Under the pieces are notes generated by a model, which saw only the letters and a program-made list of their open reading frames with translations, was not told the DNA's origin and ran no database searches. Both the position numbers and the translations under genes were made by a program. A DNA stretch of 24,652 nt from a virus. Its lineage: Duplodnaviria > Heunggongvirae > Uroviricota > Caudoviricetes. Of the stretch, positions 1-11,693 are shown piece by piece (position 1 is the stretch's first letter; each line of letters begins with the position of its first letter). Where the stretch lies: the IMG/VR virus record IMGVR_UViG_2778261572_000014, one strand, 5' to 3'.

Positions 1-252
1 TTACCATATTTCGTCACCCGCAGGGGTGGATTTACCCCAGACATCCTGCTCGCTAAGTTCCGCGGCGTTCATGTCACACTGTGCCAGCAGTTCATCAAGC
101 GAGTAGCGCCTGGAGATGGGTGTCAGAATCAGTTGGTTGTTGCTCACCTGCGCTTCCACGCTCTGCCCCGGCTGTAAGTTAAGTTCTTTCATTACGATAT
201 TGGGAATGACCATACCTGCACTGTTCCCCCATCTTTTTATGGTAATACGCAT
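1..252 (-). CDS. chpS: MazE/ChpS-family antitoxin (AbrB-fold); most likely chromosomal ChpS (ChpBI)
   Basis: Minus-strand ORF with stop at 1-3. ATG at 252-250 sits 5 nt after AAGGAGG; the ORF track starts 2 codons earlier at a GTG. Product MRITIKRWGNSAGMVIPN... carries the KRWGNS signature of MazE-like antitoxins and matches my recollection of E. coli ChpS. Partner toxin would lie off-window. Confidence 0.8.
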   Translation of the reverse strand: MRITIKRWGNSAGMVIPNIVMKELNLQPGQSVEAQVSNNQLILTPISRRYSLDELLAQCDMNAAELSEQDVWGKSTPAGDEIW

Positions 253-457
253 CTGCACCTCCTTAAGTTATACAAAGTATAACTCACGGTGCTACAGGAA
301 ACGTTTTACCCCTGCACATTTGTGAACGCCAGCAGAGTTTTTTATGCGATTGCAGATATGGAAAGCGGCTCGGAGAGAAAAGCAAAAGATGGAAAAGTTA
401 CAAAAAAAAATCGCGAGATACATCGCATAAAACAACGCCACCCGAAGGTGACATGAA

Positions 458-543: not shown

Positions 544-1539
544 TTATGGGCAATATCTGGACAACTCAGCCACAGGATTAAAGCGCACAGCATCCTGCAG
601 ATAATCCGGTGCAAAATGGGCATAAGTCATCGTCTGCTGAATAGTGCTATGCCCAAGTATTCTCTGCAAAGTGATGATATTCCCACCATTAATCATGAAG
701 TGAGTGGCAAAGGTATGCCGTAAAACATGTATCGACTGCCCTTCAGGAAGATCAGGCCTCACCTTTCTGATAGCAGCTCTGACAGCGGCATAACTTGGAT
801 AAATTAAACGACCAGTGGCCTTTGTTTTAATCATGCACTCCAGTTCTGACGATATAGGTATAACGCGACGCTTCCCATTTTTGGTTTCCATAAAAATGAC
901 TTTGCCGCTAATAACATGCTCCCCCTTGATATTTGCAACCTCACTCCATCTTCCACCTGTTGCCAGACACAACAAGACAGCTTTTAATTCATCACCAGAT
1001 AACAACTCCAGTAATCGTGGAATATCTTCATGATACAAATAAGCCATTTCAGGCTGTTTGATATTAAGTTTTTTCACATCATGAAACGGATTAGCCCCAG
1101 AATATTCCTCTGCGTCAATTAGTTTTGTGAAGAAACCACTCATCATTGCGCAATAACGATTAACCGTGGATTGTTTTATTCCGCGGTTAAGCAACAATAA
1201 CCGATAATTAATTATGTTCTTACGAGTAAGTTGGTCGCTGCGTGTAACATTAATACTCTCAAGATCACTAATGACCGCAGAAATACGCACTCGCTCCATC
1301 GCACCGTAAGGATGATTTTTCCCGTGGTATAGCCACCAACAATCCAGCAACTCCCTCAGCGAGCGCCGTTCTGTTGGCTTATCAACCCAGTCTTTGTCGT
1401 GGTAATGCTGCAATACATGACGCTCATACAAAACAGCCTCACCACGAGTATCAAATCGCCGCCTGAATCTTTTTCCTTCTGATCCAGCTGGCCGCACGTC
1501 CACACAGAATTTGCCATTAGCGAGCTTCTTAATCGACAT
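544..1539 (-). CDS. int: Tyrosine integrase, P2 Int family
   Basis: 331 aa from ATG 1539, which has GGAGGG 7 nt upstream; the ORF track's upstream ATG at 1575 lacks an SD. N-terminus MSIKKLANGKFCVDVRPAGSEGKRFRRRFD parallels P2 Int; C-terminal HVLRHTFATHFMINGGNIITLQRILGHSTIQQTMTYAHFAP carries the R..H-R-H..Y catalytic box. Confidence 0.9.
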   Translation of the reverse strand: MSIKKLANGKFCVDVRPAGSEGKRFRRRFDTRGEAVLYERHVLQHYHDKDWVDKPTERRSLRELLDCWWLYHGKNHPYGAMERVRISAVISDLESINVTRSDQLTRKNIINYRLLLLNRGIKQSTVNRYCAMMSGFFTKLIDAEEYSGANPFHDVKKLNIKQPEMAYLYHEDIPRLLELLSGDELKAVLLCLATGGRWSEVANIKGEHVISGKVIFMETKNGKRRVIPISSELECMIKTKATGRLIYPSYAAVRAAIRKVRPDLPEGQSIHVLRHTFATHFMINGGNIITLQRILGHSTIQQTMTYAHFAPDYLQDAVRFNPVAELSRYCP

Positions 1540-1605
1540 AAGGAAGCCCTCCAATGAAAACATCATCTTGATCACAGCTCTGGGAAATAAATGCCTGGTG
1601 AACCG

Positions 1606-1905
1606 TTAACCAGTCTTCTTGCCGGAGCGGGATGATTCCGCTTCGCCTTGCCCAATGTGTGCGAGAGCCGGTACAACCTGCCCGGCCTTGGGTTCAACTT
1701 CATCAAACAAAAACCAGTCGCGGTACTTACGGAACATGGGGGCTTTCAGAAGCTTTTTTGTTGACTCAAGGTTGGGTTCATTTCGTCCTTGCTCATATTG
1801 CCTTAATGCAGCAAGAGTAAGCCCAGTAATCTCTGCCATTTTTTCTTGTGTAAGCATTTCTGACTTCCGCATGATGCGAATTTTCATAGCTACGGTAGTT
1901 GACAT
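1606..1905 (-). CDS. C: Immunity repressor, P2 C family
   Basis: 99 aa, the same length as P2 C. MSTTVAMKIRIMRKSEMLTQEKMAEITGL... and C-terminal PALAHIGQGE...SGKKTG align with remembered P2 C (IVLMRKSEYL...PALAHFGQNE...SGQKTG). Divergent from cox as in P2. No SD before the ATG. Confidence 0.85.
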   Translation of the reverse strand: MSTTVAMKIRIMRKSEMLTQEKMAEITGLTLAALRQYEQGRNEPNLESTKKLLKAPMFRKYRDWFLFDEVEPKAGQVVPALAHIGQGEAESSRSGKKTG

Positions 1906-2013
1906 AGTAAGTTAACTCACTTAGTTTATACATCAATTAACACACAACGAATTGCGCTAACTAGTTCTAAATGGTGCTAGTTAGAAGAAAGCACCAATAG
2001 CGGAGGATATCAG
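1906..2013. promoter_or_regulatory. C/cox divergent switch region (Pe/Pc-type promoters and operator)
   Basis: 108-bp gap between divergent C and cox starts. Contains inverted repeat CTAACTAG (1957-1964) / CTAGTTAG (1977-1984) and SD GGAGGA at 2002-2007 for the rightward gene. Confidence 0.5.
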
Positions 2014-2439
2014 ATGCAAGAAAGCACTCAAAACGCGCCTGAGTCACTTTGCGGAACACGATGCGATCGCCTGTCAGAAATGCCAGAGGGGGTGCATCAA
2101 AAAACAGGACGCAAAGCACGTGAACGTGAAGAAATTCGACTTTCAGAAAATCCCTCGCATCTCCTGTCAAAAGAAGGATTTGCGATGTATATCGGAAAGA
2201 CCGTTGACGCCATCGTAAGCATGGCCAAAGCAGGAAAGCTACCTGCGGTGTATATGGCGGACCCTCTTAAACCAGGCGGAAACGCTGAACTCTACATCAA
2301 CAGAAAAGCGTGGGATGAAGCATGCGATCGCCTCATCGAAAACGCACCTCAGGAATGGCACGACTGGGAAAACCGTCTGTTTTTGTTTAAGCCAACAAGT
2401 GGCAGACGAAACAGAAACATCAGCGGTAAAGCAGCATAA
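2014..2439 (+). CDS. cox: Cox-like excisionase/transcriptional switch protein (start uncertain)
   Basis: ATG 2014 has GGAGGA 6 nt upstream. Segment FAMYIGKTVDAIVSMAKAGKLPAVYMADP resembles the P2 Cox HTH region. 141 aa is long for Cox (about 90 aa); internal ATGs at 2080 and 2185 are alternatives. Confidence 0.55.
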   Translation: MQESTQNAPESLCGTRCDRLSEMPEGVHQKTGRKAREREEIRLSENPSHLLSKEGFAMYIGKTVDAIVSMAKAGKLPAVYMADPLKPGGNAELYINRKAWDEACDRLIENAPQEWHDWENRLFLFKPTSGRRNRNISGKAA

Positions 2440-2476
2440 CTCAAACCATAACTCATTTTAGGCGGAGTATTTTGAT

Positions 2477-2827
2477 ATGAAGGAACGGCGCAATTCTTCA
2501 CAGCAGCGCTTCCGCAACGGGGCGGAACGCCACGCTAACCGTTTCGCTACCAGCGCATCACGCAGCAGCTCTCGCTACAGCCTGAGCGAAACACACGCAA
2601 CACCTGATGGCCATCCCGTAAAACAAATTGGCGAACACACCTGGCTGATTGAAAAAGCTGGAATCGTGGTCCACAAATGCCCACGCAATCCGTTTACCGG
2701 AAACCGCATTTTTGCACTGTTCAACGGCGACAATCAGTTCGGACAGGATTTCACATTGTACGAAGCACTACGCACGGTTGATCGTCTGCTGCGTGGACAG
2801 AGTTTTATTAAACAGGCTGATTTATAA
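2477..2827 (+). CDS. Hypothetical early protein (116 aa), R/S-rich N-terminal half
   Basis: ATG 2477 with GGCGGAG 9 nt upstream, co-oriented in the early operon. No family recognised. Confidence 0.5.
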   Translation: MKERRNSSQQRFRNGAERHANRFATSASRSSSRYSLSETHATPDGHPVKQIGEHTWLIEKAGIVVHKCPRNPFTGNRIFALFNGDNQFGQDFTLYEALRTVDRLLRGQSFIKQADL

Positions 2828-2837
2828 CAGGTGCTTT

Positions 2838-3116
2838 ATGACTAAAGACCATACTCAAGGTGTATTTATCCGCTTTATTGATTCTCGCGGTGAACTGTTA
2901 TTGCGTGCATCAGCTATTAATGGTGTGGCCCAGGCAAAAGACGCAACCACTCATATTTATTTGGACAGCGCCGCACAACTGATCGTGGAGCTTCCGTACC
3001 AGACTGTACGTGAAGTCATTAGCGAAGCTGAAAAGGCACGTCAGATTAATAGCGATGAACCATACATCGAAATTATCTGCATGGATTCAGAAGCTGAAAT
3101 TAAGAAAGCAGATTAA
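2838..3116 (+). CDS. Hypothetical early protein (92 aa)
   Basis: ORF beginning MTKDHTQGVFIRF. The longer track ORF from 2649 overlaps the previous gene by 180 nt in another frame, so the internal ATG 2838 is preferred. Confidence 0.45.
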   Translation: MTKDHTQGVFIRFIDSRGELLLRASAINGVAQAKDATTHIYLDSAAQLIVELPYQTVREVISEAEKARQINSDEPYIEIICMDSEAEIKKAD

Positions 3117-3127
3117 AGGGCGTTGTG

Positions 3128-3370
3128 ATGGGCAAAGAATATAAAACTCTCATTAACAAAGCACTTGAGCGTTTTTATTTTCGCTTAAGCGCATCAGGCG
3201 CTCATGCTGAACGTGCAGCCCGTGACTCATTGACCAGGGCAATCCGGAGTCTGTATGACGTGGCTTTTTACGCTGATGATCTGGATGCACTTAACGAACT
3301 TTCCGAGCTTATCTGCGCAGCAGAATGCGGGGAACATATTGAACCGTATAAGCTGGGGAATATCGCATGA
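3128..3370 (+). CDS. Hypothetical early protein (80 aa)
   Basis: ATG 3128; the track start at 3125 is a GTG one codon upstream. Stop overlaps the next small ORF (ATGA at 3367-3370). Confidence 0.5.
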   Translation: MGKEYKTLINKALERFYFRLSASGAHAERAARDSLTRAIRSLYDVAFYADDLDALNELSELICAAECGEHIEPYKLGNIA

Positions 3371-3480
3371 ATATATTTATTTCGTGGCTTGTTCTGATTT
3401 TTTCGGTGGTTTGCGCAATTGGTATTATGCGAATTATTCATTCAGTAAAAAAGATTGAACGTTTTTTCACTGGCGAATAA
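3367..3480 (+). CDS. Small hydrophobic peptide (37 aa), predicted single-pass membrane peptide
   Basis: MNIFISWLVLIFSVVCAIGIMRIIHSVKKIERFFTGE: one hydrophobic helix followed by a basic tail. Translationally coupled to the upstream ORF by ATGA overlap. Below the ORF-track size cutoff. Confidence 0.3.
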   Translation: MNIFISWLVLIFSVVCAIGIMRIIHSVKKIERFFTGE

Positions 3481-3573
3481 CAGCATAAACAAAACACAAG
3501 ATTAAATACGAAAACATGAAAACCATCCGCATTCGCGGAGGCGTTCGCACACGTAAATAACGGAGATACAAAA

Positions 3574-3948
3574 ATGTACGCAAAAGAAGAAGGCATTATT
3601 CACAACCTGAATGAAATCGCAGATATGCAAGGTGAAGTAGCAAAAGAAGCCATGGCGAATGGCCACATGGACACCGCAACTCTCTCATTAATAATCGCCA
3701 AAACTGCTACTGAAGCCGCTGAAATCATCGAAAAACAGGCTGCCGAGCTGGAAGTTATCAGGGCACAGCAAACAAAAGAAAATTCGCCAGCCACCAATAT
3801 CGGCAAGCGAGTTCGCCTCGCTGTTGCTGACGACAAAATTTACATCATCGTAGCCGAGTCTAAAGACCAGGAGAAACTCTTAATTAAGGAGATCTCCGCC
3901 AACCCCGCTCTGGAAGCTAATAAAAAAGAAGTCCGCTTCATTGACTGA
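3574..3948 (+). CDS. Hypothetical early protein (124 aa), acidic, helical-looking
   Basis: ATG 3574 with GGAGA 7 nt upstream; the antisense ORF 3600-3836 is rejected. Confidence 0.55.
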   Translation: MYAKEEGIIHNLNEIADMQGEVAKEAMANGHMDTATLSLIIAKTATEAAEIIEKQAAELEVIRAQQTKENSPATNIGKRVRLAVADDKIYIIVAESKDQEKLLIKEISANPALEANKKEVRFID

Positions 3949-3960
3949 CGGAATAACGCA

Positions 3961-4287
3961 ATGGAGAGACTGAAATACATCGTGGCCCTGCTGGGCCACA
4001 TCATCAGGACCGCAACCGGCTTTTACTATCGCCCGTTCAGTGCGTCATGGGATGGGGCATTAGAACAACTACTGGGTGAAGGTTCACTCGTAACCGTGAA
4101 TCGGCATAACGCGATTTTTTATTACGGCGAGAACTTCTTTGAGGTGTGGGTAGCTAACCGCTGGTATGGCTACGGCTGGCTTAACCGCGTTAATGGTTCT
4201 GACGCCAACAATCGAACTCGCCCACGCTTTCGCACCATGTACCGCCTGCATCAAATGGTGCAGGCCTTCCAGGCTAAGGAAACGTAA
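3961..4287 (+). CDS. Hypothetical early protein (108 aa), aromatic-rich
   Basis: ATG 3961, co-oriented. No family recognised. Confidence 0.5.
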   Translation: MERLKYIVALLGHIIRTATGFYYRPFSASWDGALEQLLGEGSLVTVNRHNAIFYYGENFFEVWVANRWYGYGWLNRVNGSDANNRTRPRFRTMYRLHQMVQAFQAKET

Positions 4288-4490
4288 TGGCAATTAAGAA
4301 ATTTACCGTCATTCGTTTCACCTCCAGAGGGCGTGAATACGAAGTTGACGAACGGCTGATTAAAACGCTCGACCGTCACCGTTCGCAACCTGACGCGCAT
4401 CACATTTATCTCATAGACGACACATACTTCTGCGCCACGAATGTGGTGCAAGTGAACCTTATCCGACAGATACAGGAGTCACGAAGATGA
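4287..4490 (+). CDS. Hypothetical early protein (67 aa)
   Basis: ATG overlaps the preceding stop (TAATG), AAGGA upstream. Stop overlaps the next start (ATGA at 4487-4490). Confidence 0.5.
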   Translation: MAIKKFTVIRFTSRGREYEVDERLIKTLDRHRSQPDAHHIYLIDDTYFCATNVVQVNLIRQIQESRR

Positions 4491-4786
4491 CCATTCTGGA
4501 CTATATCGCCGCCAATCCGGGGTGTAGTGGCGGAGAAATCGCCGCAGCACTGAATACCCCAACCACAGCTATTAATGCGGAGTTACGCCGACTCTGGCGC
4601 AGCGGCTTAGTCATCAGAGAAGAACGCAAAACAGGTGGTCGGTTCTCTTACCAGGTAAACCCGATGCCGTTCGGGTGTGGCAACCCACTAACCCTCATGT
4701 TTAACCAGCTACTGAAGGAAGCCAGAGCATGCACAAAGCCTTTGAACGATGGATGCGCCAGCGTTATGGCAATCGCTACGACCTGA
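4487..4786 (+). CDS. Winged-helix DNA-binding protein (99 aa)
   Basis: ATG 4487 with CAGGAG 9 nt upstream. LDYIAANPGCSGGEIAAALNTPTTAINAELRRLWRSGLVIREERKTGGRFSY has the helix-turn-helix-wing pattern of MarR/wHTH domains. Confidence 0.55.
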   Translation: MTILDYIAANPGCSGGEIAAALNTPTTAINAELRRLWRSGLVIREERKTGGRFSYQVNPMPFGCGNPLTLMFNQLLKEARACTKPLNDGCASVMAIATT

Positions 4787-4876
4787 CGAGAGATACCGAT
4801 GGCTACTACTGTCGCGAAATTGTGAAACGAATGTTTGAAGTGTGGTGCCACCGCCGCGGTTTATACGCCGTGTAAA
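4730..4876 (+). CDS. Possible small overlapping ORF (48 aa)
   Basis: ATG 4730 with AAGGAAG 8 nt upstream; MHKAFERWMRQRYGNRYDLTRDTDGYYCREIVKRMFEVWCHRRGLYAV. Overlaps the 3' end of the previous gene in another frame. Confidence 0.25.
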
Positions 4877-4902
4877 GCACCACCACTAACGGGGTAAGAA
4901 AT

Positions 4903-5463
4903 ATGCACAACTTCAAACTCAAACCAATGGGTACACCTGGCGTGGCTCCGGCACATGTAAAGCCATGGACACAACAGGAAGATGAAATGCTTATCTCGCT
5001 TTATCCGGAGTGCAACACGCACCAGATAACTGAACGAATTCAACGAACCCATGACGCAGTTATGCACCGACTTAGTTTTTTACGTGATCGTGGATTGATT
5101 GGCCGCAAGAAAAAGACACTGAGTGCAAAAGAGATCGCCTTTCTCATCGAAAACCGCCGCGCCAGAACAGCGCGGGAACTGGCCGCCGAGGCGGGATGCA
5201 CCCCTCGCACCGTACAAGCACACCTGAATAAACGTGGTTACAGCCTACAAAAATGCGGGGAACTCCATCACCTGACCAAATACAGCGATCACCTGGTAGA
5301 ACTGGTGACTGAACTACATGATGAGCAGCACATGACGTTCGCCATGATAGCAAAACACATTAATCACACACTGCAAATAAAAATCACCACTCGCACAGCA
5401 CGTTCTCTTTACGGTCGCCGAGTCGCTGCTGACGCCGTACTGTACGAGCTATTACCAAACTGA
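4903..5463 (+). CDS. Putative DNA-binding early protein with two HTH-like segments (186 aa)
   Basis: ATG 4903. HTH-like stretches THQITERIQRTHDAVMHRLSFL and TARELAAEAGCTPRTVQAHLNKRG. Confidence 0.5.
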   Translation: MHNFKLKPMGTPGVAPAHVKPWTQQEDEMLISLYPECNTHQITERIQRTHDAVMHRLSFLRDRGLIGRKKKTLSAKEIAFLIENRRARTARELAAEAGCTPRTVQAHLNKRGYSLQKCGELHHLTKYSDHLVELVTELHDEQHMTFAMIAKHINHTLQIKITTRTARSLYGRRVAADAVLYELLPN

Positions 5464-5583
5464 GTGATCATAATGCACACACAAAAAAACCGCTTGCCAT
5501 GCCGCAATCAGTCAGGTTACATTTCCGCTGCACCTCATAAAACGGGTGCCGGGTTTCGCAGCCTGCTGACTACAAGAGCGCAC

Positions 5584-5604
5584 AACCGCGCCAGCGGTTT
5601 TTTT
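5584..5604 (+). terminator. Intrinsic terminator candidate inside the early operon
   Basis: AACCGC-GCCA-GCGGTT stem-loop followed by a T-run (TTTTTTT through 5604), about 120 bp after the 4903-5463 ORF. Confidence 0.45.
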
Positions 5605-5783
5605 GTGCGTACTGTATTGCCACGTTTTTTTCGCGTCAGAATTATGGCGGGGCGTACGGGGCCGACTTCGGTCGGGCCGGGATCTCTTGTAGCCGGTACT
5701 GCGAACCTCGTACGTCTCGCCACCCACAGTTTCGCAGCTCTGGATGGTGAGTTTTCACAACTTACTACAAGAGGCCACATATC

Positions 5784-6014
5784 ATGGCAAACCGCAAACA
5801 GCACCGCACTATCGCGGAGCGTCGTCACATCCAGACTGAAATCAACCGCAGACTTTCCCGCGCATTCCGCGTCGCTAAAATCATGCACATCAATATGCTG
5901 CATGAGCGTAGCTGCGAACTTTCAAACCTCTATTCATCCGCTGTTTTCAGCTATCTGGCGGATGATCTGCGCGAGCTTCAACAGCTCATCCAGCAGCAAA
6001 ACAAACTCCATTAA
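5784..6014 (+). CDS. Hypothetical early protein (76 aa), basic
   Basis: ATG 5784 with AAGAGG 9 nt upstream. Balanced composition, unlike the overlapping S/T/R-rich 5464-6090 frame, which is rejected. Confidence 0.5.
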   Translation: MANRKQHRTIAERRHIQTEINRRLSRAFRVAKIMHINMLHERSCELSNLYSSAVFSYLADDLRELQQLIQQQNKLH

Positions 6015-6086
6015 TTCCTGTTCCGGGCCTTTCCTGCACCTTGCGGCGGGAGGCCTTCGCACATCTGTAACAAGAGGATTGCCGCA

Positions 6087-6452
6087 ATGATTCTCGCCAA
6101 CGACTTTCTTGAATACCTGCTCAACACAGAACGTGATCTTGCCGCTCGCGTGCGTGATCGTTATGACATGTACCTGAAATCCCTGCCTGTACCGCAGCTC
6201 GCTGACGGAAAGATTGTTATTGATGGTCGCTACATGATTGACAGCCACGAGGGAAATTACAGGCTTTACCGCATTGAAGGTGGCACCCCGTCCGTTATTG
6301 GCATTTACCAGCGCCCATCCTCTGCAATTGTCGATGTGATTGCCGACAGCATCCGCATCACACATCGCCATGCCGACACAGAAGACACCGTGCTGGAAAT
6401 TCAGCGGCTGGCTGCCGTCTGCCGCGACACCCTGAATGGCATGACGAAGTAA
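6087..6452 (+). CDS. Hypothetical early protein (121 aa), immediately upstream of A
   Basis: ATG 6087 with AAGAGG 9 nt upstream. Confidence 0.5.
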   Translation: MILANDFLEYLLNTERDLAARVRDRYDMYLKSLPVPQLADGKIVIDGRYMIDSHEGNYRLYRIEGGTPSVIGIYQRPSSAIVDVIADSIRITHRHADTEDTVLEIQRLAAVCRDTLNGMTK

Positions 6453-6458
6453 ATCACT

Positions 6459-9281
6459 ATGACGGCAGAGTACATCAGGGACTGGCAACAACCGCGCCAC
6501 GCAGTGGGACGTGAAGGAACGGGGATCCCCGTTCCTGAATCTGCGCTTTCCTCCTGGCTGGATGCCTACCGGGCAGAGAACGAGCGCCGCCAGGAAATGG
6601 CTGATGCGGCGTTCTCCGCCACGCCGCTGGGCAACCTGATTAATAAAAGCCTGGATGCACAGGAAAAACAGGACAAAACCATCACACTGGCAGGAGACGC
6701 CAGAAAACAGGCACGCGGCGCGGTGGATGAAGCCATGGCCTCGCTGCGCCTGCTGCCGTCCTATCTGCGCGATCCGCTTATTCGCCACCTCTCCTTCCTG
6801 CGCAAAAAACAGGAAGTCGATCGCCGGAAAGGCAAAAAGAGCTGGCAGGCTGAACGCTACGCGCGCGGAACCCTGCGCAAAATATTCGAACGTCTGGATC
6901 GCACTGACGGACACTGGCTGACACCGGGTTATCGCTTCCTTGCCGGACGCGAACGCCTGGACGATTTGCTTTACCTGCCGCAGCTCAACAAACACCAGAT
7001 ACAGACGCTGGCCACCATGACGGCGGCGATGTTCAGCAGCACCTTCGAAAAACTCTGCGATGGCTTTGGCGCGACCGATGGCGAACTGACCATGGATGTA
7101 ACGCTGAAGGCGTATCAGATGCTGGCCCGCATGGCGTTACACCTGCACATCATGCCTCCACATTATGACGCACTGACAACAGATAAAGACCGGAGGAACG
7201 AACCGGACACGGAGCTGCTGCCGGGCGCAATCCTTCGCCTGACCTGTGCGGAATGGTGGAAACGCAAACTGTGGCTGTTACGTTGCGAGTGGAGAGAAGA
7301 ACAACTCCGCGCCGCCTGTCTGGTTTCCAGAAAAACATCACCCTATCTGAGCCAGGACGCGTTAAGCGAGTTTCGCGCACAGCGCGAGAAAACACGCGAT
7401 TTCCTGAAAAGTTTCATGCTGGAAAACGAAGACGGGTTCACGATTGATCTCGAGACAGTGTATTACGCGGGAGTAAGTAACCCGGTTCACCGTAAGGCAG
7501 AAATGATGGCCACCATGAAGGGGCTGGAACTTCTGGCCGAAGCCCGTGGCGACAAAGCGGTGTTTCTGACTGTCACCTGCCCGTCAAAATACCACGCCAC
7601 AACAGAGAACGGTCATCCGAATCCCAAATGGAACGGGGCCACCATGCGCGACTCCAGCGATTACCTGGTTAACACGTTTTTTGCAGCGGTCCGCAAGAAA
7701 CTGAACCGCGACGGCCTGCGCTGGTATGGCATCCGCACGGTGGAGCCTCACCATGACGGCACCGTGCACTGGCATATGATGGTCTTTGCTCATCCGGAAG
7801 AAATCGACACCATTGTGTCCCACACCCGCGATATTGCCATTCAGGAAGATCGTCACGAGCTGGGTGATGATATTACCCCACGCTTTAAGGCGGAGTACGT
7901 CGACGGCTCAAAAGGCACGCCAACCAGCTACATCGCCACCTACATCGGAAAGAACCTGGACAGCCGCGCCGTGGATGGCATCGACCCGAAAACGGGCAAG
8001 CCACGCGTTGACCACGAAACAGGTAAATCAATGGCCGAGAGCGTGGAGCGCGCCATCGGCTGGGCGCGCCTTCACCGGGTCCGCCAGTTCCAGTTCTTTG
8101 GCATCCCCTCCCGTCAGGTGTGGCGTGAACTCCGCCGCCTTGCCAGCCAGATGGCACGCAACCCGGAAGGCCCGCAACGGCTGAAGGATGACGCAATGGA
8201 TGCGGTACTCGCTGCCGCTGATGCCGGATGTTTTGCCACCTACATTGAAAAACAGGGTGGCGTACTTGTTCCGCGCAAGGACTACCTGATTCGCACAGCC
8301 TACGACCTCGCAGATGAGCTGAACGATTACGGCGAACAGAGTGTACAGATTTACGGGATCTGGTCGCCATTCATCGGGGAATCCTCCCGTGTGTGCACGC
8401 ATCCGGATAACTGGAAGCTGGTAAGACGTAAACCGGAAGCGGAAGACAGCGCCCGCGAAAATGGTTTTGACCTTCAGGGCGGCCCTGCCGCCCCTTGGAC
8501 TCGTGGCAATAACTGTCCCCGTGTACAGGAAACGGACAACAACGGGACAGAACAGCCGGAAGAACGGCCAGCACCGTGGCCGCAGCTCCCTGACGGCGTT
8601 GAAGTGAACGAATGGATGCGCTCACTGAAACGGCACGAACGCCGGGCGCTGATGCGTTCGCTTCGTGACAAACAGGCAAAAAACAGCAGTGATGAAATGC
8701 AGAGCTGGACACAGAGCCGCAAACAGCAGCGGCCTTTGCCTGATAACCACGAATTACTCGCTAAAGAATGGCGGGAGTCTGCCGAATCTCTCGGCCTGCA
8801 TATCGGTGAACAGCAGATGCAGCACCTGTTACGGGGCGGCAGCCTGTACGTTGACGGCAGCATCATTGCACCGCAGGGATTTGAAATTGTACGCAAACCG
8901 GATACCCGCCCGGACAGCCGAATCACGCAGCTCTGGCAGCGCCTGAGCCGTAATCACGGCGTAAGCAGCACGGAGATCCGCCATAACCCGGTCGCCGGCT
9001 ATCTGGAACAGCTGGGGATATCAGACCCCGAAGCCGCCGCACGCCTGGCATCCACACTTCAGCAGGACCAGAACACCATGAAAACCCCCGTTACCGTGCT
9101 TTCTGACATGCTGCGCGCCATCCGTGACGCAGAGCACGCACAGAGAATCAGTGAAACCACTGAACGCGCCCGCCGCAAAGCAGACCTGCTGCGGGGTAGC
9201 CTGACCAGTGGAAACAAAAAACAGACAGAAACGGGATTCATAAAACCCGTAAATGAGCAAAAAACGCGCCGCGATATATGA
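6459..9281 (+). CDS. A: Rolling-circle replication initiator endonuclease, P2 gpA family
   Basis: 940 aa. Contains TVTCPSKYH and RTVEPHHDGTVHWHMMVF (HUH-type motif), followed by YIATYIGKN, as in P2 A (LTAPSKYH, RVVEPHHDGTPHWHMMLF). C-terminal third is long and low-complexity. Confidence 0.9.
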   Translation: MTAEYIRDWQQPRHAVGREGTGIPVPESALSSWLDAYRAENERRQEMADAAFSATPLGNLINKSLDAQEKQDKTITLAGDARKQARGAVDEAMASLRLLPSYLRDPLIRHLSFLRKKQEVDRRKGKKSWQAERYARGTLRKIFERLDRTDGHWLTPGYRFLAGRERLDDLLYLPQLNKHQIQTLATMTAAMFSSTFEKLCDGFGATDGELTMDVTLKAYQMLARMALHLHIMPPHYDALTTDKDRRNEPDTELLPGAILRLTCAEWWKRKLWLLRCEWREEQLRAACLVSRKTSPYLSQDALSEFRAQREKTRDFLKSFMLENEDGFTIDLETVYYAGVSNPVHRKAEMMATMKGLELLAEARGDKAVFLTVTCPSKYHATTENGHPNPKWNGATMRDSSDYLVNTFFAAVRKKLNRDGLRWYGIRTVEPHHDGTVHWHMMVFAHPEEIDTIVSHTRDIAIQEDRHELGDDITPRFKAEYVDGSKGTPTSYIATYIGKNLDSRAVDGIDPKTGKPRVDHETGKSMAESVERAIGWARLHRVRQFQFFGIPSRQVWRELRRLASQMARNPEGPQRLKDDAMDAVLAAADAGCFATYIEKQGGVLVPRKDYLIRTAYDLADELNDYGEQSVQIYGIWSPFIGESSRVCTHPDNWKLVRRKPEAEDSARENGFDLQGGPAAPWTRGNNCPRVQETDNNGTEQPEERPAPWPQLPDGVEVNEWMRSLKRHERRALMRSLRDKQAKNSSDEMQSWTQSRKQQRPLPDNHELLAKEWRESAESLGLHIGEQQMQHLLRGGSLYVDGSIIAPQGFEIVRKPDTRPDSRITQLWQRLSRNHGVSSTEIRHNPVAGYLEQLGISDPEAAARLASTLQQDQNTMKTPVTVLSDMLRAIRDAEHAQRISETTERARRKADLLRGSLTSGNKKQTETGFIKPVNEQKTRRDI

Positions 9282-9357: not shown

Positions 9358-10317
9358 ATGAAAATTTGTATCGACGACGGCTCCACCAACATCAAGCTGG
9401 CATGGACTGAGAACGGCGAACGCCGCAACGCCATCAGCCCGAACAGCTTCAAATCGGAATGGTCTGCGCCGTTCGGTGGCATACAGCCCGCGAACTACAT
9501 GCTTGATGGCGTGCGCTATGGTTTTGATCCGGTCAGCGATCGCTTTGTCCAGACGACCGACACGCAATACCAGTACAGCGATGTGAATGTAATTGCCATT
9601 CATCACGCGCTGGTCAAATCAGGCATCACGCCACAGGAGGTGGATGTGGTTGTCACCCTGCCACTGAGCGAGTATTTCGACACAAACGCACAGCCGGACA
9701 TGGCCAACATCAACCGCAAAAAAGCAAACGTCATGCGCCCGGTGGCGTACCAAAACGGAAAAGCATTCACTATCCGTAACGTACGGGTTATGCCTGAATC
9801 CATTCCGGCTGGTTTTAAAGCACTGGCTGACATGAGTCCGTTTGAATCCCTGCTGATTGTGGATTTAGGCGGAACCACGCTGGATGTGGCAAAGGTTCAG
9901 GGGCAACTGGCAGGTATCAGCCAGGTGTTTTGCGATCCACACGTAGGCGTTTCCCTGATGGCCGATGCCGTACTGTCGGTGATGGCCACTAACGGTATGC
10001 GTACCAGTCACCACATCGCCAATACCATTATCGAACATCGCCATGATGAAGCCTGGCTGCGCCAGCACATCCACAATGACGCGCATTACGCCAGCCTGAT
10101 GGCGGTTATTCGTGAAAAGGAAGAAACACTGAAACAACGCGTGATCCGCGCGCTGGCGGGTTTTTCGGGTTACGGGCGGGTGATGGTTGTCGGTGGTGGG
10201 GCGGAGATTGTGGCACCCGCTATCCGCGAAGCCTGCGGAGTTAATGCGACTTTCATCACGGACGGGGTGCCACAGTTTGCTCTGGTTAATGGGCTGTACG
10301 CAATGGACAAGGAGTAA
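9358..10317 (+). CDS. parM: ParM/StbA-family actin-like segregation ATPase
   Basis: 319 aa, ATG 9358 with AAGGAA upstream. MKICIDDGSTNIKLAW..., YSDVNVIAIHHAL, VMPESIPAG, LIVDLGGTTLD, VMVVGGGAE, LVNGLY run in register with remembered plasmid R1 ParM (MLVFIDDGSTNIKLQW..., LIIDLGGTTLD, VMVIGGGAE, LVNGMY). Confidence 0.85.
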   Translation: MKICIDDGSTNIKLAWTENGERRNAISPNSFKSEWSAPFGGIQPANYMLDGVRYGFDPVSDRFVQTTDTQYQYSDVNVIAIHHALVKSGITPQEVDVVVTLPLSEYFDTNAQPDMANINRKKANVMRPVAYQNGKAFTIRNVRVMPESIPAGFKALADMSPFESLLIVDLGGTTLDVAKVQGQLAGISQVFCDPHVGVSLMADAVLSVMATNGMRTSHHIANTIIEHRHDEAWLRQHIHNDAHYASLMAVIREKEETLKQRVIRALAGFSGYGRVMVVGGGAEIVAPAIREACGVNATFITDGVPQFALVNGLYAMDKE

Positions 10318-10321
10318 ACCA

Positions 10322-10633
10322 ATGACGACACCAACCAGACGGATAAGTTTCTATCTGAAGCCCGCCGCCGTCAAGAACGAAGGTGAAGCATGCGCCTGGC
10401 TGGACAGCCTTACACCAGAAGCTCGCAAAAGCGGCCAACGCGTGGCTTTTCTGGCCGGGCTGGCACTTCTGAAAATGAATCCGGCAGAGGCTTACCGACT
10501 GGCTGCATGGGCTGATGATGAGGCGTTATCAGTGACACAAACCAGGGCAGAACACCACATGTTACAGCCAGCGCCCACCGCACAGATAACCAGCCAGCTA
10601 GCCGGAAATATCCGGGCGTTATTTCCTGAATAA
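10322..10633 (+). CDS. parR: ParR-like centromere-binding adaptor (ribbon-helix-helix)
   Basis: 103 aa, ATG 10322, 4 nt after the parM stop, AAGGAG upstream. RRISFYLKPAAV...LDSLTPEARKSGQRVAFLAGLALL...IRALFPE parallels R1 ParR (RRTIAFKLNPDV...LDSIPQGERSRLNRAALTAGLALY...LRSLFPKE). Confidence 0.7.
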   Translation: MTTPTRRISFYLKPAAVKNEGEACAWLDSLTPEARKSGQRVAFLAGLALLKMNPAEAYRLAAWADDEALSVTQTRAEHHMLQPAPTAQITSQLAGNIRALFPE

Positions 10634-10685: not shown

Positions 10686-11693
10686 GTGAGCATCATTCAG
10701 CGCTGCCGAGCAGAAAACACTTTTAATTTGGTTTCCATGTCTGGCGGGAAAGACTCACTGGCGCAATGTTTGTATGCCATAGAAAACGATATACAGCATG
10801 AGCGAGTGTTTGCTGATACGGGACACGAACACCCACAAACGATGGAGTACCTTGACTACCTGGAACAAAAGCTGGGCCCAATTCGTCGCGTAAAAGCCGA
10901 CTTCACTCGCCAGATAGAAGGTAAGCGCAAATTCATTGCTGAAAAATGGCCAGTATCTCTTGTTGCAGAGTGCGGAATGACGCCTGATGAAGCAGCGGAA
11001 CGTGTTGCTCGTGCGCTGGAAATCCTCCACCCAACCGGAAATCCATTTCTTGACCTGTGCATGTGGAAAGGTCGTTTCCCGAGCACTAAAGCGCGGTTCT
11101 GTACATTCGAACTGAAACACGAACCAGTGCGCACTCAGGTGGTGCAACCTGCGCTTGATGAATATGACGAAGTTATCTCCTGGCAGGGCGTGCGTGCTCA
11201 GGAATCGCCATCGAGGGCACGCCTGCAAGTGTGGGTGGAGGATGCGGACAATACCCCCGGATTGCATGTCTATCGTCCGATTCTCAACTGGCTACATGAG
11301 GATGTTTTCGCTATTGCCAGGCGTCACGGGATTAAACCCAACCCACTCTACCAACAAGGATGCAGCCGCGTTGGGTGTATGCCATGCATTCATGCCAGAA
11401 AATCTGAACTGGCGGAAATTTTTCAGCGCTGGCCAGAGGAAATCGCCAGAGTGGCAGAGTGGGAACGATTAGTTGCAGCCTGCTCTCGCCGCGGCAACTC
11501 AACGTTTTTCCCGTCAACTCATGACCCGCGCCGGGCAGAATGTCGCATAGATGTTGTTACCGTAGACAGCTACGGAATCGAAACCTATCGCGACTGGGCA
11601 ATGACAACCCGGGGCGGCGCTCAATTTGACCTGCTGGCGAGCACGAACGATAAGGCGGTGTGCAACAGTGTTTATGCGGGAGTATGCGAATGA
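10686..11693 (+). CDS. PAPS-reductase-family PP-loop ATP pyrophosphatase-like protein (DndC/CysH-like fold), function unknown
   Basis: 335 aa. GTG start 10686 with GGAGG 6 nt upstream; no upstream in-frame ATG. N-terminal VSMSGGKDS PP-loop, FADTGHEHPQT, WQGVRAQESPSRA, and C-terminal cysteine cluster CSRVGCMPC. Confidence 0.8.
   Translation: MSIIQRCRAENTFNLVSMSGGKDSLAQCLYAIENDIQHERVFADTGHEHPQTMEYLDYLEQKLGPIRRVKADFTRQIEGKRKFIAEKWPVSLVAECGMTPDEAAERVARALEILHPTGNPFLDLCMWKGRFPSTKARFCTFELKHEPVRTQVVQPALDEYDEVISWQGVRAQESPSRARLQVWVEDADNTPGLHVYRPILNWLHEDVFAIARRHGIKPNPLYQQGCSRVGCMPCIHARKSELAEIFQRWPEEIARVAEWERLVAACSRRGNSTFFPSTHDPRRAECRIDVVTVDSYGIETYRDWAMTTRGGAQFDLLASTNDKAVCNSVYAGVCE

What the first reader, a model, noticed from the sequence alone, without database searches (positions are those of the whole stretch)
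2477..6452. Expanded early operon: about 11 small ORFs between cox and A
P2 has roughly 2 kb and about 6 genes between cox and A; here there are about 4 kb and at least 11 co-oriented small ORFs, most with SD sequences and several with overlapping stop/start codons. None shows a recognisable enzymatic motif; two look DNA-binding (4487-4786 winged helix, 4903-5463 double HTH). Early small proteins of temperate phages are often host-takeover or anti-defence factors.
Basis: partly seen in the sequence, partly recalled or inferred. Interest (0 to 1): 0.55.

Follow-up and report, generated by a model that had tools for sequence, protein, structure and literature searches.

The report
P88-type early operon hiding an antisense-RNA switch
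The run of small genes is the normal, mosaic early operon of a very common P88-like E. coli prophage, but it contains an overlooked antisense-RNA switch of the kind used by satellite phage P4, placed over the ribosome-binding site of a gene related to P4's helper-derepression protein.

Summary
The ORFs are real: 12 co-oriented small genes lie at 2477-6452, most with SD sequences and three with stop/start overlaps. P2 is the wrong yardstick, though. The window is a P88-like (Xuanwuvirus) prophage, and related DNA occurs in 1639 of 5426 complete E. coli genomes.

In 85 related loci the distance from p1 start to A start runs from 2.0 to 4.4 kb (3982 bp here). Seven ORFs are lineage core: DUF4761, phrog_3800, DUF4754, a 37-aa membrane peptide, a 67-aa protein, a MarR-type wHTH, and a probable DUF5405 relative just upstream of A. 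The extra DNA sits in two cargo hot spots.

The "gap" at 5464-5783 is not coding. It holds an IsrK-like leader and a C4 antisense RNA, both above their Rfam thresholds. The C4 loops a'/b' match two target pairs exactly, and b2 covers the SD of p11, a homologue of P4 epsilon. Across 68 relatives there are 18 a'/b' combinations, and both target copies co-vary with them.

No ORF matches a known defence or anti-defence family. The anti-defence idea is therefore untested. It stays open only for the rare cargo genes p5, p6, p9 and p10.

The parts
2014..2439 (+). cox (141 aa), first gene of the early operon; context
   Evidence: Pfam Phage_Cox E 5.5e-28. 36% identical to P2 Cox. 99% identical to P88 gp03.
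2477..2827 (+). p1, DUF4761 protein (116 aa); lineage core
   Evidence: PF15958 228.7 bits. Present at 80-97% identity in nearly all 85 P88-like loci.
2838..3116 (+). p2 (92 aa), phrog_3800; lineage core
   Evidence: PHROG E 4.4e-47. Corresponds to P88 gp05. Present in nearly all loci.
3128..3370 (+). p3, DUF4754 protein (80 aa); lineage core
   Evidence: PF15946 181.7 bits. 76-100% identity across loci.
3367..3480 (+). p4, 37-aa hydrophobic peptide; lineage core; ATGA overlap with p3
   Evidence: Conserved at 62-100% across loci. Annotated as a membrane protein in P88. No family hit.
3554..4269 (.). Cargo block 1 (hot spot between p4 and p7), absent from the minimal relative L021
   Evidence: Block map by blastn. 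The hot spot is empty (88-100 bp) in 40 of 82 loci. This block occurs in only 8 of 5426 complete E. coli genomes.
3574..3948 (+). p5 (124 aa), phrog_9338; cargo. N-terminal helical hairpin plus a poorly predicted C-terminal domain.
   Evidence: 31 database clusters, all 'hypothetical'. In the AF2 model, helices 3-28 and 32-69 have pLDDT >85 and the rest <50.
3961..4287 (+). p6 (108 aa), phrog_16975; rare cargo with a conserved C-terminal RP(R/S)FRTMYRLH motif
   Evidence: 9 database clusters. Alignment A5. Found in only 4 of the 82 loci that could be scored for this hot spot.
4287..4490 (+). p7 (67 aa), phrog_3459; lineage core
   Evidence: PHROG E 1.5e-42. Present in nearly all loci.
4487..4786 (+). 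p8, MarR-type winged-helix protein (99 aa); lineage core. The last ~18 codons read into cargo block 2; relatives are 81 aa.
   Evidence: MarR_2 33.8 bits against a cut-off of 27. The PHROG match covers residues 1-82 only. The protein is 81 aa in P88 and L021. Homology breaks at 4731.
4732..5971 (.). Cargo block 2 (hot spot between p8 and p12): p9, p10, the RNA module and most of p11
   Evidence: Block map. The hot spot is 132 bp in 17 loci and up to about 2 kb in others.
4729..4875 (+). p9 (48 aa), phrog_3871; cargo shared with lambdoid prophages
   Evidence: PHROG E 1.9e-30. DNA matches in phiP27 and phi467 and in about 260 E. coli genomes, mostly outside P88-like phages.
4903..5463 (+). p10 (186 aa), multi-HTH putative DNA-binding protein; rare cargo
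   Evidence: phrog_323 'transcriptional regulator' E 4.7e-30. Pfam HTH hits are all below their cut-offs. The full block occurs in 7 of 5426 genomes.
5494..5523 (+). Promoter-like site TTGCCA-N18-TACATT, ending 7 nt before the IsrK-like 5' end
   Evidence: consensus match only, and promoter-like sites are not enriched over shuffles. The sequence is identical in P88 and the Citrobacter phage although the upstream genes differ.
5530..5604 (+). IsrK-like leader RNA (P4 'seqA' equivalent). Carries a1 (5555-5561), b1 (5570-5578) and an intrinsic terminator (stem 5584-5599 plus a T run).
   Evidence: Rfam RF01394 66.7 bits, gathering score 50. Terminator scan. Fold.
5640..5727 (+). C4-type antisense RNA (P4 CI / P1 C4 equivalent). 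b' CTCTTGTAG at 5684-5692 lies in a hairpin loop; a' CTGCGAA at 5699-5705 lies in a single-stranded junction.
   Evidence: Rfam RF01695 81.1 bits, gathering score 45. MFE -47 kcal/mol, z -4.18, same structure as the Rfam consensus. 99.8% of cells paired in 22 distinct relatives and 5 pairs changed on both sides.
5731..5773 (+). Downstream target pair: a2 TTCGCAG (5731-5737) and b2 CTACAAGAG (5765-5773). b2 overlaps the SD AAGAGG of p11.
   Evidence: Exact complements. The a..b pattern occurs 3 times in the window: at the two target pairs, and once on the minus strand at 5684-5705, which is C4's own a'/b' segment read in reverse complement. 0 matches are expected by chance. Co-varies with C4 in relatives.
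5784..6014 (+). p11 (76 aa), homologue of the P4 epsilon helper-derepression protein; the gene controlled by C4
   Evidence: BLASTP against P4 epsilon: 30% over 66 aa, E 2e-9. PF25738 30.1 bits, cut-off 27. Reciprocal PHROG hits. hhalign 93.4%. Present in exactly the 68 of 85 loci that have C4.
6087..6452 (+). p12 (121 aa), phrog_3237; lineage core, 96-100% conserved. Probable remote relative of DUF5405 (P2 Orf81/Orf83), which also lies just upstream of A.
   Evidence: Alignment A1. hhalign against a DUF5405 profile 91.7%, E 7.9e-7. AF2 pLDDT 81.6. No informative fold match.
6459..9281 (+). A, rolling-circle replication endonuclease (940 aa); right boundary
   Evidence: Phage_GPA E 5.8e-132. 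31-35% identical to P2 and 186 A.

Best explanation
The interval is the early (Pe) operon of a P88-like (Xuanwuvirus, P2-family) prophage.

It has two layers. The first is a conserved backbone of seven small genes: p1, p2, p3, p4, p7, p8 and p12. The second is cargo in two recombination hot spots, one between p4 and p7 (p5, p6) and one between p8 and p12 (p9, p10, an RNA cassette, p11).

The RNA cassette is an IsrK/C4-type antisense immunity module. It has the same architecture as the P4 seqA-CI-seqC region and P1/P7 immI.

Shown by sequence:
- A promoter-like site lies just upstream of an IsrK-like leader. The leader carries decoy sites a1/b1 and ends at an intrinsic terminator.
- A C4 RNA follows, with loops b' and a'.
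- A second target pair a2/b2 comes next, and b2 lies on the Shine-Dalgarno of p11.

Inferred by analogy with P1 C4 and P4 CI:
- Read-through transcripts are processed to yield C4.
- In the lysogen C4 pairs with a2/b2 and blocks p11 translation.
- It probably also provokes Rho-dependent termination, which would limit expression of p12 and the replication gene A from this repressor-independent promoter.
- The terminated IsrK-like RNA and extra Pe read-through transcripts carry more targets than C4 copies, so they could titrate C4 and flip the switch.

p11 is a homologue of P4 epsilon. It most likely acts as an antirepressor of a P2-C-type repressor.

The many a'/b' variants would define RNA-based immunity specificities.
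For: Lineage and backbone:
- 93% DNA identity to phage P88 over 67% of the interval. Related DNA is in 1639 of 5426 E. coli genomes.
- A gene-presence matrix over 85 loci, a minimal locus L021 and a block map define the core genes and two insert blocks.

RNA module:
- Rfam isrK scores 66.7 bits (gathering score 50) and C4 scores 81.1 bits (gathering score 45), adjacent on the + strand.
- C4 folds to the family structure with z -4.18.
- Helices are kept in 22 distinct relatives: 99.8% of cells paired against about 40% in slid controls.
- The a'/b' complements flank C4 exactly twice, with 0 expected by chance. b2 overlaps the SD of p11.
- In 68 relatives there are 14 b' loops and 5 a' junctions, giving 18 combinations. 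In 62 of 68 loci all four target sites are perfect Watson-Crick complements, 4 more need G.U pairs, and 2 have one mismatch.

Closest relative:
- P4's own immunity region hits the same two Rfam models and has the same a1-b1 / CI / a2-b2-on-SD layout upstream of epsilon.
- p11 and P4 epsilon are homologous by four tests.
- Lambdoid phages carry the same module in front of Rha/antirepressor genes. In Gifsy-1 the cargo AnrP is an anti-repressor (PMC7380047, PMC4825925).
- C4 and p11 co-occur in 68 of 68 loci and are both absent in 17 of 17.
Against: - There are no expression data. The promoter is only a consensus match, and promoter-like sites are not enriched over shuffles (4 found, 6.2 expected).
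- A second promoter-like site at 5617-5645 would start transcription inside C4.
- The p11 Pfam score is only just above threshold (30.1 against 27). p11 lacks the last ~28 residues of epsilon.
- p11 variants are not obviously linked to C-repressor type across loci, so its target may not be the phage's own repressor.
- The 17 module-less loci look like one or two clonal lineages and still carry a 43-nt remnant of the p11 3' end. The co-occurrence therefore reflects few independent events.
- Polarity on p12 and A is pure inference. The p12 RBS does not co-vary with C4 type.
- Functions of the backbone genes and of p5, p6, p9 and p10 remain unknown.
Confidence: 0.8

Rival explanations
1. One reading: the small early ORFs, or at least the cargo ones p5, p6, p9 and p10, are host-takeover or anti-defence factors expressed early in infection.
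For: - p5/p6 and p9/p10 sit in variable hot spots and are rare: 8 and 7 of 5426 genomes respectively.
- They are co-oriented with the early operon.
- They belong to narrow families of unknown function.
- p9 is exchanged with unrelated lambdoid phages, which is moron-like behaviour.
Against: - None of the four matches a known defence or anti-defence family, a Pfam domain above its cut-off, or a solved structure.
- p10 looks like a DNA-binding regulator.
- The p5 model is only a generic helical hairpin.
- 7 of the 12 ORFs are lineage core, and p11 is regulatory.
- No phenotype data exist.
Confidence: 0.2
2. The IsrK/C4 and epsilon-like cassette mainly serves competition between mobile elements rather than the phage's own lysis-lysogeny decision. 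The C4 RNA would silence incoming phages or P4-like satellites that share its specificity. The epsilon-like protein would derepress other resident P2-type prophages.
For: - The RNA family and the protein family are the same as in satellite P4.
- Specificity is strongly diversified and a' and b' are shuffled in a modular way, as expected under an arms race.
- The same C4 specificity occurs with different C types and p11 variants, and in a divergent phage, L097.
- Barquist et al. suggested a protective role against satellites for such modules in lambdoid prophages (PMC3632133).
Against: - All 12 IMG/VR contigs carrying this window's exact b'/a' 22-mer are P88-like phages. None is a satellite.
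- P4's own a'/b' sequences differ.
- No satellite survey was done and there are no functional data.
Confidence: 0.12
3. The RNA matches are an inert relic, for example DNA captured from a P4-like satellite, and the interval is functionally just a string of ORFs.
For: Recombination is rampant in this region. A lineage without the module exists.
Against: - The RNA and both target copies co-vary three ways across 18 types, with perfect pairing in 62 of 68 loci.
- Helices are retained through compensatory changes.
- The module occurs at >=80% coverage in 1154 of 5426 complete E. coli genomes.
Confidence: 0.03
4. It is an ordinary P2-type early operon whose ORFs are diverged equivalents of orf78, B and orf80-83.
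For: - C, cox and A are P2-family homologues.
- p12 is probably a DUF5405 relative in the same position as P2 Orf83.
- There is a weak p3 to P2 B match, E 0.007 over 45 aa.
Against: - BLASTP and hhalign of p1-p11 against all P2 and 186 early proteins give nothing above 4% probability.
- The Pfam families differ: DUF4761, DUF4754 and MarR_2 here against DUF2732, zf-dskA_traR and DUF5405 in P2.
Confidence: 0.05

Closest known systems
Immunity region of satellite phage P4 (PLE - seqA - CI RNA - seqC - ... - epsilon - orf151 - orf106 - alpha)
   Same: - The same two Rfam families occur in the same order and on the same strand: isrK 60.8 bits and C4 74.9 bits in P4.
- The layout is the same: a1/b1 upstream, b' and a' in the C4 loop and junction, a2/b2 downstream with b2 on an SD.
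- A homologous epsilon-family gene lies downstream.
- A replication gene lies further downstream.
   Different: - The host element is a complete P2-family phage with its own C/Cox switch, not a satellite.
- The epsilon-like gene follows b2 directly. P4 has a 65-aa ORF in between.
- p11 is 76 aa against 95 aa for epsilon, and only 30% identical.
- The replication gene is the A endonuclease, not the alpha primase-helicase.
- The a'/b' sequences differ.
immI of phages P1 and P7 (P51 - c4 - icd - ant)
   Same: A processed antisense RNA of the same Rfam family has a' and b' sites that pair with a2/b2 over the RBS of the first downstream ORF and so hold an antirepressor in check. Specificity variants make phages hetero-immune, as with P1 versus P7. 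This rests on established knowledge and on Citron & Schuster 1990 as cited in PMC7313666.
   Different: The cargo here is a small epsilon-like protein, not Icd/Ant. There is no evidence here for a C1-type operator on the promoter. The module is embedded in a P2-type early operon.
Gifsy-1 IsrK - orf45 - anrP - isrJ locus (Salmonella)
   Same: An IsrK leader has a Rho-independent terminator, and read-through gives a downstream processed RNA (STnc1160, C4-like). The cargo is an anti-repressor (PMC4825925, PMC7380047).
   Different: In Gifsy-1 the short IsrK RNA was shown to activate translation in trans. That role is only inferred here, as a decoy for C4. The phage family is lambdoid and the cargo protein is different.
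Early operon of Escherichia phage P88 and Citrobacter phage phiSM (Xuanwuvirus)
   Same: The backbone genes occur in the same order, and the same RNA module and p11/p12/A follow.
   Different: - P88 carries ead/Ea22-like, membrane and SPFH genes in hot spot 2 and nothing in hot spot 1. This window carries p5+p6 and p9+p10 instead.
- The C4 specificity differs: the P88 b' is CTGTAGTTG and the a' is GTGGAAA.
- P88's annotated minus-strand gp13 lies over isrK and C4 and is probably spurious.
P2 early operon (cox - orf78 - B - orf80 - orf81 - orf82 - orf83 - A)
   Same: It has a Cox-first, A-last early operon next to a divergent C repressor. A DUF5405-type gene lies directly upstream of A. Internal terminators are annotated in the early operons of P2 and 186.
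   Different: There are no detectable B, orf78, orf80 or orf82 homologues. Different small-gene families are present, along with an RNA module and an epsilon-like gene that P2 lacks.

Membership tests
IsrK/C4 antisense immunity module (P4 seqA-CI-seqC; P1/P7 immI) | C4-type RNA matching the family covariance model above its gathering score | tested here: met
   RF01695 81.1 bits against 45, E 4.8e-15, full length 1-87.
IsrK/C4 antisense immunity module (P4 seqA-CI-seqC; P1/P7 immI) | IsrK/seqA-like leader with a Rho-independent terminator, upstream on the same strand | tested here: met
   RF01394 66.7 bits against 50 at 5530-5604. Stem at 5584-5599 followed by a T run.
IsrK/C4 antisense immunity module (P4 seqA-CI-seqC; P1/P7 immI) | Long closing stem with two inner hairpins; b' exposed in a loop and a' in a single-stranded junction | tested here: met
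   The MFE structure equals the family structure, z -4.18. 27 pairs, 99.8% of cells paired, 5 pairs with changes on both sides.
IsrK/C4 antisense immunity module (P4 seqA-CI-seqC; P1/P7 immI) | Two target pairs complementary to a'/b' flanking the RNA gene, with the downstream b site over the RBS of the next ORF | tested here: met
   a1 5555-5561, b1 5570-5578, a2 5731-5737, b2 5765-5773. b2 overlaps AAGAGG, 10 nt before the ATG at 5784.
IsrK/C4 antisense immunity module (P4 seqA-CI-seqC; P1/P7 immI) | RNA and targets co-vary between relatives (specificity variants) | tested here: met
   18 a'/b' combinations in 68 loci. 62 of 68 are perfectly complementary at all four sites.
IsrK/C4 antisense immunity module (P4 seqA-CI-seqC; P1/P7 immI) | The RNA is made in the lysogen by processing (RNase P) and represses downstream translation or causes transcription termination | not testable with these tools
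   Needs Northern blot or RNA-seq and reporter fusions.
P4 epsilon / Derepression protein family (PF25738) | Sequence membership above the curated threshold | tested here: met
   30.1 bits against 27, a marginal pass (P4 epsilon itself scores 170 bits). BLASTP E 2e-9. hhalign 93.4%. Reciprocal PHROG hits.
P4 epsilon / Derepression protein family (PF25738) | Full-length correspondence to epsilon (95 aa) | tested here: inconclusive
   p11 is 76 aa. The match covers profile positions 8-71 of 95, and the C-terminal part of epsilon has no counterpart.
P4 epsilon / Derepression protein family (PF25738) | Binds and inactivates a P2-type C repressor | not testable with these tools
   The window's C is 44% identical to P2 C, so a target of the right type is present. 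No binding data exist. p11 variant and C type are not clearly linked.
P2-type early operon (cox, orf78, B, orf80-83, A) | C, Cox and A homologues in P2 order | tested here: met
   C 44%, Cox 36%, A 31% identical to the P2 proteins. Pfam Phage_Cox and Phage_GPA.
P2-type early operon (cox, orf78, B, orf80-83, A) | Homologues of B, orf78, orf80 (DUF2732) and orf82 (zf-DksA/TraR) | tested here: not met
   No BLASTP hit (E<1e-3), Pfam hit or hhalign match.
P2-type early operon (cox, orf78, B, orf80-83, A) | DUF5405 gene (orf81/orf83) directly upstream of A | tested here: inconclusive
   The p12 profile against a DUF5405 profile gives 91.7%, E 7.9e-7. A shallow alignment gives only 15.8%, and there is no Pfam hit.
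Xuanwuvirus (P88-like) early region | Backbone genes p1, p2, p3, p4, p7, p8, p12 and A in P88 order, with high DNA identity | tested here: met
   93.2% identity to P88 over 67% of 2000-6500. Gene matrix.
Known anti-phage defence or anti-defence proteins | Significant match of any ORF to a described family | tested here: not met
   PADLOC gave only weak matches (E >= 8e-4, 14-17 bits) to HTH regions of p8 and p10 and nothing for the other eight ORFs tested. No relevant Pfam or NCBIfam hits. No dedicated anti-defence library was available.

The most novel reading that the evidence does not exclude
P88-like phages, which occur in about a fifth of complete E. coli genomes, run a second, RNA-based immunity layer of the P4 type on top of the C/Cox switch. 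The C4 RNA would gate both an epsilon-like antirepressor and, by polarity, the replication genes p12-A. Its 18 or more shuffled a'/b' specificities would decide which co-resident or incoming P88-like phages, and possibly which P4-like satellites using the same RNA and epsilon families, are silenced or derepressed. This would also suggest that P4's immunity and derepression cassette shares its origin with a module of its helper-type phages.
Probability: 0.25. Interest if true: 0.65.

Novelty: new member of a known kind. Interest (0 to 1): 0.4.

Why it matters
As stated, the finding is ordinary: a long early operon of small ORFs is the usual mosaic early region of a very common prophage lineage.

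The value lies in what the interval hides. It contains a complete IsrK/C4 antisense switch wired to a P4-epsilon homologue, inside a P2-family phage of the helper type. The module is neither annotated in the public records examined nor discussed in the P88 and phiSM papers. It is present at >=80% coverage in 1154 of 5426 complete E. coli genomes.

Three questions become experimentally approachable:
- How P88-like prophages are induced.
- Whether they have RNA-determined hetero-immunity.
- Whether they cross-talk with P4-like satellites.

The analysis also narrows the search for accessory or anti-defence functions from 12 ORFs to four rare cargo genes: p5, p6, p9 and p10.

Tried and rejected
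- **p12 RBS as a third C4 target.** In this window it reads ACAAGAGG, similar to b2. The p12 leader is essentially invariant across all C4 types, so there is no co-variation. Rejected.
- **LexA or C-repressor control of the module promoter.** The only CTGT-N8-ACAG match lies inside A and is chance-level. The only sequence shared with the Pe/Pc switch region is one 8-mer. No support.
- **Defence or anti-defence identity of the ORFs.** PADLOC, NCBIfam and PDB sequence searches for p10, p11 and p12 gave nothing meaningful.
- **p5 structure.** Only a generic helical hairpin was confident, so I did not run a fold search.
- **Equivalence to P2 and 186 early genes.** Rejected for all ORFs except p12.
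- **Other ORFs in the interval.** The 208-aa ORF at 5464-6090 overlaps the RNAs and p11 out of frame. The 353-aa minus-strand ORF at 5934-6995 runs antisense to p12 and A. I treat both as spurious.
- **GTDB species-representative scan with p12.** Only one extra locus, from E. albertii. The family is narrow.
- **Linkage between C-repressor type and p11 variant.** No clear association in the identity matrix, so it cannot be used as evidence for the target of p11.
- **Literature.** I found no paper in the searchable library describing IsrK/C4 in P2-like or P88-like phages, or dealing with DUF4761 or DUF4754.

Full report
**What the window is.**
The left part of the window reads as follows:
- a host antitoxin-like gene at 1-258, minus strand
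- a tyrosine integrase at 544-1575, minus strand
- a P2-C-type repressor at 1606-1905, minus strand
- cox at 2014-2439
- the interval in question
- a 940-aa Phage_GPA replication endonuclease at 6459-9281
- ParM, a plasmid-stability protein and a PAPS-reductase-like gene

Megablast shows that this is a P88-like prophage (genus Xuanwuvirus, Peduoviridae). It is 93.2% identical to phage P88 over 67% of 2000-6500. Matches occur in 1639 of 5426 complete E. coli genomes. Only one genome, TUM1881, covers more than 80% of the interval, at 97.6% identity.

**Checking the observation.**
RefSeq annotation of TUM1881 and of P88, together with the ORF list, gives 12 + strand genes, p1 to p12; coordinates are in the parts list.
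- Eleven of the twelve match PHROG families at E 1e-20 to 1e-55. The exception is p4, a 37-aa hydrophobic peptide that is nevertheless conserved in almost every relative.
- SD-like purine runs precede nearly all starts. p3/p4 and p7/p8 share ATGA, p6/p7 share TAATG, and p8/p9 overlap by 58 nt.
- p8 is a MarR-type winged helix, at 33.8 bits against a cut-off of 27.
- p10 has several HTH matches below their cut-offs and a PHROG 'transcriptional regulator' match at E 4.7e-30.
- P2 does have 1754 bp and six ORFs between cox and A.

The descriptive part therefore holds, with one important exception: 5464-5783 is not coding.

**Why the operon is "expanded".**
I collected 85 related loci: the window, TUM1881, P88, Citrobacter phage phiSM, one E. 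albertii locus and 80 IMG/VR contigs.

A tblastn matrix shows two classes of gene.
- p1 (DUF4761), p2, p3 (DUF4754), p4, p7, p8, p12 and A are present in essentially all loci.
- p5 has only distant relatives (34-48% identity). p6, p9 and p10 are rare.

The distance from p1 start to A start ranges from 2034 to 4406 bp and is 3982 bp here. Seventeen loci have a minimal ~2.0-kb form (2034-2043 bp where both ends are held) containing just the backbone.

Alignment to that minimal form divides the window into five segments:

| Segment | Coordinates | Content |
|---|---|---|
| Core | 2525-3553 | p1-p4 |
| Insert 1 | 3554-4269 | p5, p6 |
| Core | 4270-4731 | p7, p8 |
| Insert 2 | 4732-5971 | p9, p10, RNA module, most of p11 |
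| Core | 5972 onwards | 3' end of p11, p12, A |

A census of the two hot spots gives:
- Hot spot 1 is empty in 40 of 82 loci.
- Hot spot 2 is empty in 17 of 85 loci. It most often holds an ead/Ea22-like gene plus the RNA module and p11 (924 bp).
- Some loci carry an SPFH/membrane gene pair in hot spot 2.

In complete E. coli genomes, insert 1 occurs in 8 of 5426. The p9-p10 block occurs in full in 7 of 5426. The p9 part alone matches about 260 genomes, mostly in other prophages.

The expansion relative to P2 is real, but it is normal variation for this lineage and comes from cargo in two hot spots.

**The overlooked RNA module.**
An Rfam scan places an IsrK-like RNA at 5530-5604 (66.7 bits, gathering score 50) and a C4 antisense RNA at 5640-5727 (81.1 bits, gathering score 45).

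Around them:
- A TTGCCA-N18-TACATT promoter-like site ends 7 nt before the IsrK-like 5' end.
- A GC-rich stem at 5584-5599 followed by a T run closes the IsrK-like RNA.
- C4 folds into the family structure: -47 kcal/mol, z -4.18.
- Its hairpin loop carries b' CTCTTGTAG and its single-stranded junction carries a' CTGCGAA.

Exact complements occur at a1 5555-5561 and b1 5570-5578, inside the IsrK-like RNA. They occur again at a2 5731-5737 and b2 5765-5773. The combined a..b pattern is found nowhere else in the 24.6-kb window, and 0 matches are expected by chance. b2 overlaps the AAGAGG Shine-Dalgarno of p11, whose ATG is at 5784.

**Comparative test of the pairing.**
P88 and phiSM carry different a'/b' sequences, and both of their target copies have changed to match.

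I built a covariance model from seven C4 sequences. It finds C4 in 68 of the 85 loci. Among those 68:
- There are 14 b' loops and 5 a' junctions, in 18 combinations.
- All four target sites are perfect Watson-Crick complements in 62 loci. Four more need G.U pairs, and two have one mismatch.
- The C4 helices are maintained: 99.8% of cells are paired against about 40% in slid controls, and 5 pairs have changes on both sides.

This three-way co-variation is strong evidence that the RNA-target interaction is under selection. It also indicates that specificity is being diversified by modular exchange of a and b.

The 17 loci without C4 are exactly the 17 without p11. However, they look like one or two clonal lineages and keep a 43-nt remnant of the p11 3' end. 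This reflects deletion in few events and is only weak independent evidence.

**What the controlled gene is.**
p11 (76 aa) is a homologue of the P4 epsilon helper-derepression protein, by four tests:
- BLASTP: 30% identity over 66 aa, E 2e-9.
- PF25738: 30.1 bits against a cut-off of 27. P4 epsilon itself scores 170 bits.
- Reciprocal PHROG hits.
- hhalign: 93.4%, E 2.4e-7.

NCBI names it 'derepression protein' in some genomes.

P4's own immunity region hits the same Rfam models, C4 at 74.9 bits and isrK at 60.8 bits. It also has the same geometry: a1/b1, then CI with b' and a', then a2/b2 with b2 on the AGGAGG of a 65-aa ORF whose stop overlaps the epsilon start.

The literature identifies IsrK and C4 as structural homologues of P4 seqA and CI RNA, and notes similar systems in P1, P7, N15 and lambdoid prophages (PMC3632133, PMC4825925). 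In Gifsy-1 the cargo is an anti-repressor (PMC7380047). In the lambdoid phages I fetched, the same module precedes Rha/antirepressor genes.

I found no paper describing the module in P2-like or P88-like phages. The P88 and phiSM papers do not mention it. In the P88 RefSeq record a minus-strand 'gp13' is annotated on top of the two RNAs.

**Mechanism, with status of each step.**

Shown by sequence and comparison:
- the RNA genes
- the fold of C4
- the exposed a'/b' sites
- the two target pairs
- b2 lying on the RBS of p11
- co-variation between RNA and targets
- homology of p11 to epsilon

Inferred from P1 C4 and P4 CI:
- A repressor-independent promoter makes the IsrK-like RNA. I found no operator shared with the Pe/Pc switch and no LexA box.
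- Read-through transcripts are processed to C4.
- C4 blocks p11 translation.

More speculative:
- The untranslated p11 stretch is C-rich (C 31%, G 21%). It may allow Rho termination and so limit p12-A expression. In module-bearing phages the cassette lies between Pe and A.
- Terminated IsrK-like RNA and Pe read-through transcripts carry two target sets per C4 copy. They may titrate C4 during induction.
- p11 inactivates a P2-C-type repressor. The window's C is 44% identical to P2 C.

Against the simplest version of that last step, p11 variants are not obviously linked to C type.

**The other ORFs.**
- p12 is 96-100% conserved across the 84 other loci in the matrix, phiSM included and belongs to a very narrow family: about seven full-length clusters among 1.84 billion representatives.
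- Its model (pLDDT 81.6: two helices, a four-stranded sheet, then two helices) has no informative fold match.
- A profile-profile comparison links residues 42-120 of p12 to DUF5405, the family of P2 Orf81/Orf83 and 186 gp31: 91.7%, E 7.9e-7. A shallower alignment gives only 15.8%. DUF5405 occupies the same position directly upstream of A in P2 (Orf83); in 186 the DUF5405 gene gp31 is separated from A by orf84. I regard this as probable.
- No other ORF relates to P2, 186 or P4 early proteins.
- p5 is a confident helical hairpin plus an unmodelled C-terminal part, in a family of 31 clusters that are all 'hypothetical'.
- p6 has nine clusters and a conserved C-terminal RP(R/S)FRTMYRLH motif.
- Nothing matches PADLOC or NCBIfam meaningfully.

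The anti-defence idea therefore remains open only for the four rare cargo genes, with no positive evidence.

**Verdict.**
As written, the finding describes an ordinary feature of a very common prophage lineage. Its functional interpretation is unsupported.

The interval does contain a well-supported, literature-silent instance of a known kind of regulatory system: an IsrK/C4 antisense switch wired to a P4-epsilon homologue inside a P2-family phage, with 18 co-varying specificities.

I rate this as a new member of a known kind, of moderate interest.

Noticed in passing
L002 (P88, NC_026014) 5033-5221, minus strand; window 5464-6090 (+) and 5934-6995 (-): P88's annotated 'gp13' lies exactly over the IsrK-like and C4 RNAs and is probably a spurious ORF. 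In the window, a 208-aa + strand ORF over the RNAs and a 353-aa ORF antisense to p12 and A are likewise artefacts. RefSeq/PGAP records list no RNA feature here.
   Followed up: partly
window 9358-10317 and about 10330-10633: A ParM (StbA) actin-like segregation ATPase and a Plasmid_stab_B protein lie directly after the replication gene A in an integrated P2-family prophage. The same pair is annotated in P88 and phiSM. This suggests a plasmid-like maintenance option.
   Followed up: no
window 10686-11693: A PAPS-reductase-domain protein is 82% identical to phage 186 orf84. Here it lies downstream of A and ParM. In 186 it lies immediately upstream of A, where its translation is said to be needed for A translation.
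   Followed up: no
window 6459-9281: The A protein is 940 aa. The Phage_GPA domain covers only residues 179-503, and similarity to P2 and 186 A ends near residue 740. About 200 C-terminal residues are specific to the P88-like lineage.
   Followed up: no
window 1-258, minus strand: The ORF at the left edge looks like a MazE/ChpS-type antitoxin of the host chromosome (recognised from memory, not tested). If so, attL lies between 258 and the integrase gene at 544. The near-identical early region in TUM1881 sits next to pheA with a different integrase, repressor and cox. The immunity and integration module has therefore been swapped.
   Followed up: no
L097 (IMGVR_UViG_3300021279_000026): A much more divergent phage (A 52% and p1 65% identical, no p12 hit) carries exactly the same C4 b'/a' 22-mer as the window. 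This indicates horizontal movement of the RNA cassette between distant relatives.
   Followed up: partly
window 4732-4786 (3' end of p8): p8 is 99 aa here but 81 aa in P88 and in the minimal locus. Homology breaks at 4731, so the last ~18 codons are a read-through created by the junction with the p9-p10 cargo block.
   Followed up: partly
L021 and 16 similar loci, between p8 and p12: Loci without the RNA module still carry the last 43 nt of p11 (equivalent to window 5972-6014) but no start codon. The module-less form therefore looks like a deletion derivative, not the ancestral state.
   Followed up: partly
P0061 and P0063 (1112 and 1409 aa), hits of p12 residues 37-86: Two large proteins match the beta-meander part of p12 in eight separate stretches each. 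This part of p12 may resemble a repeat unit of some large repeat protein.
   Followed up: no
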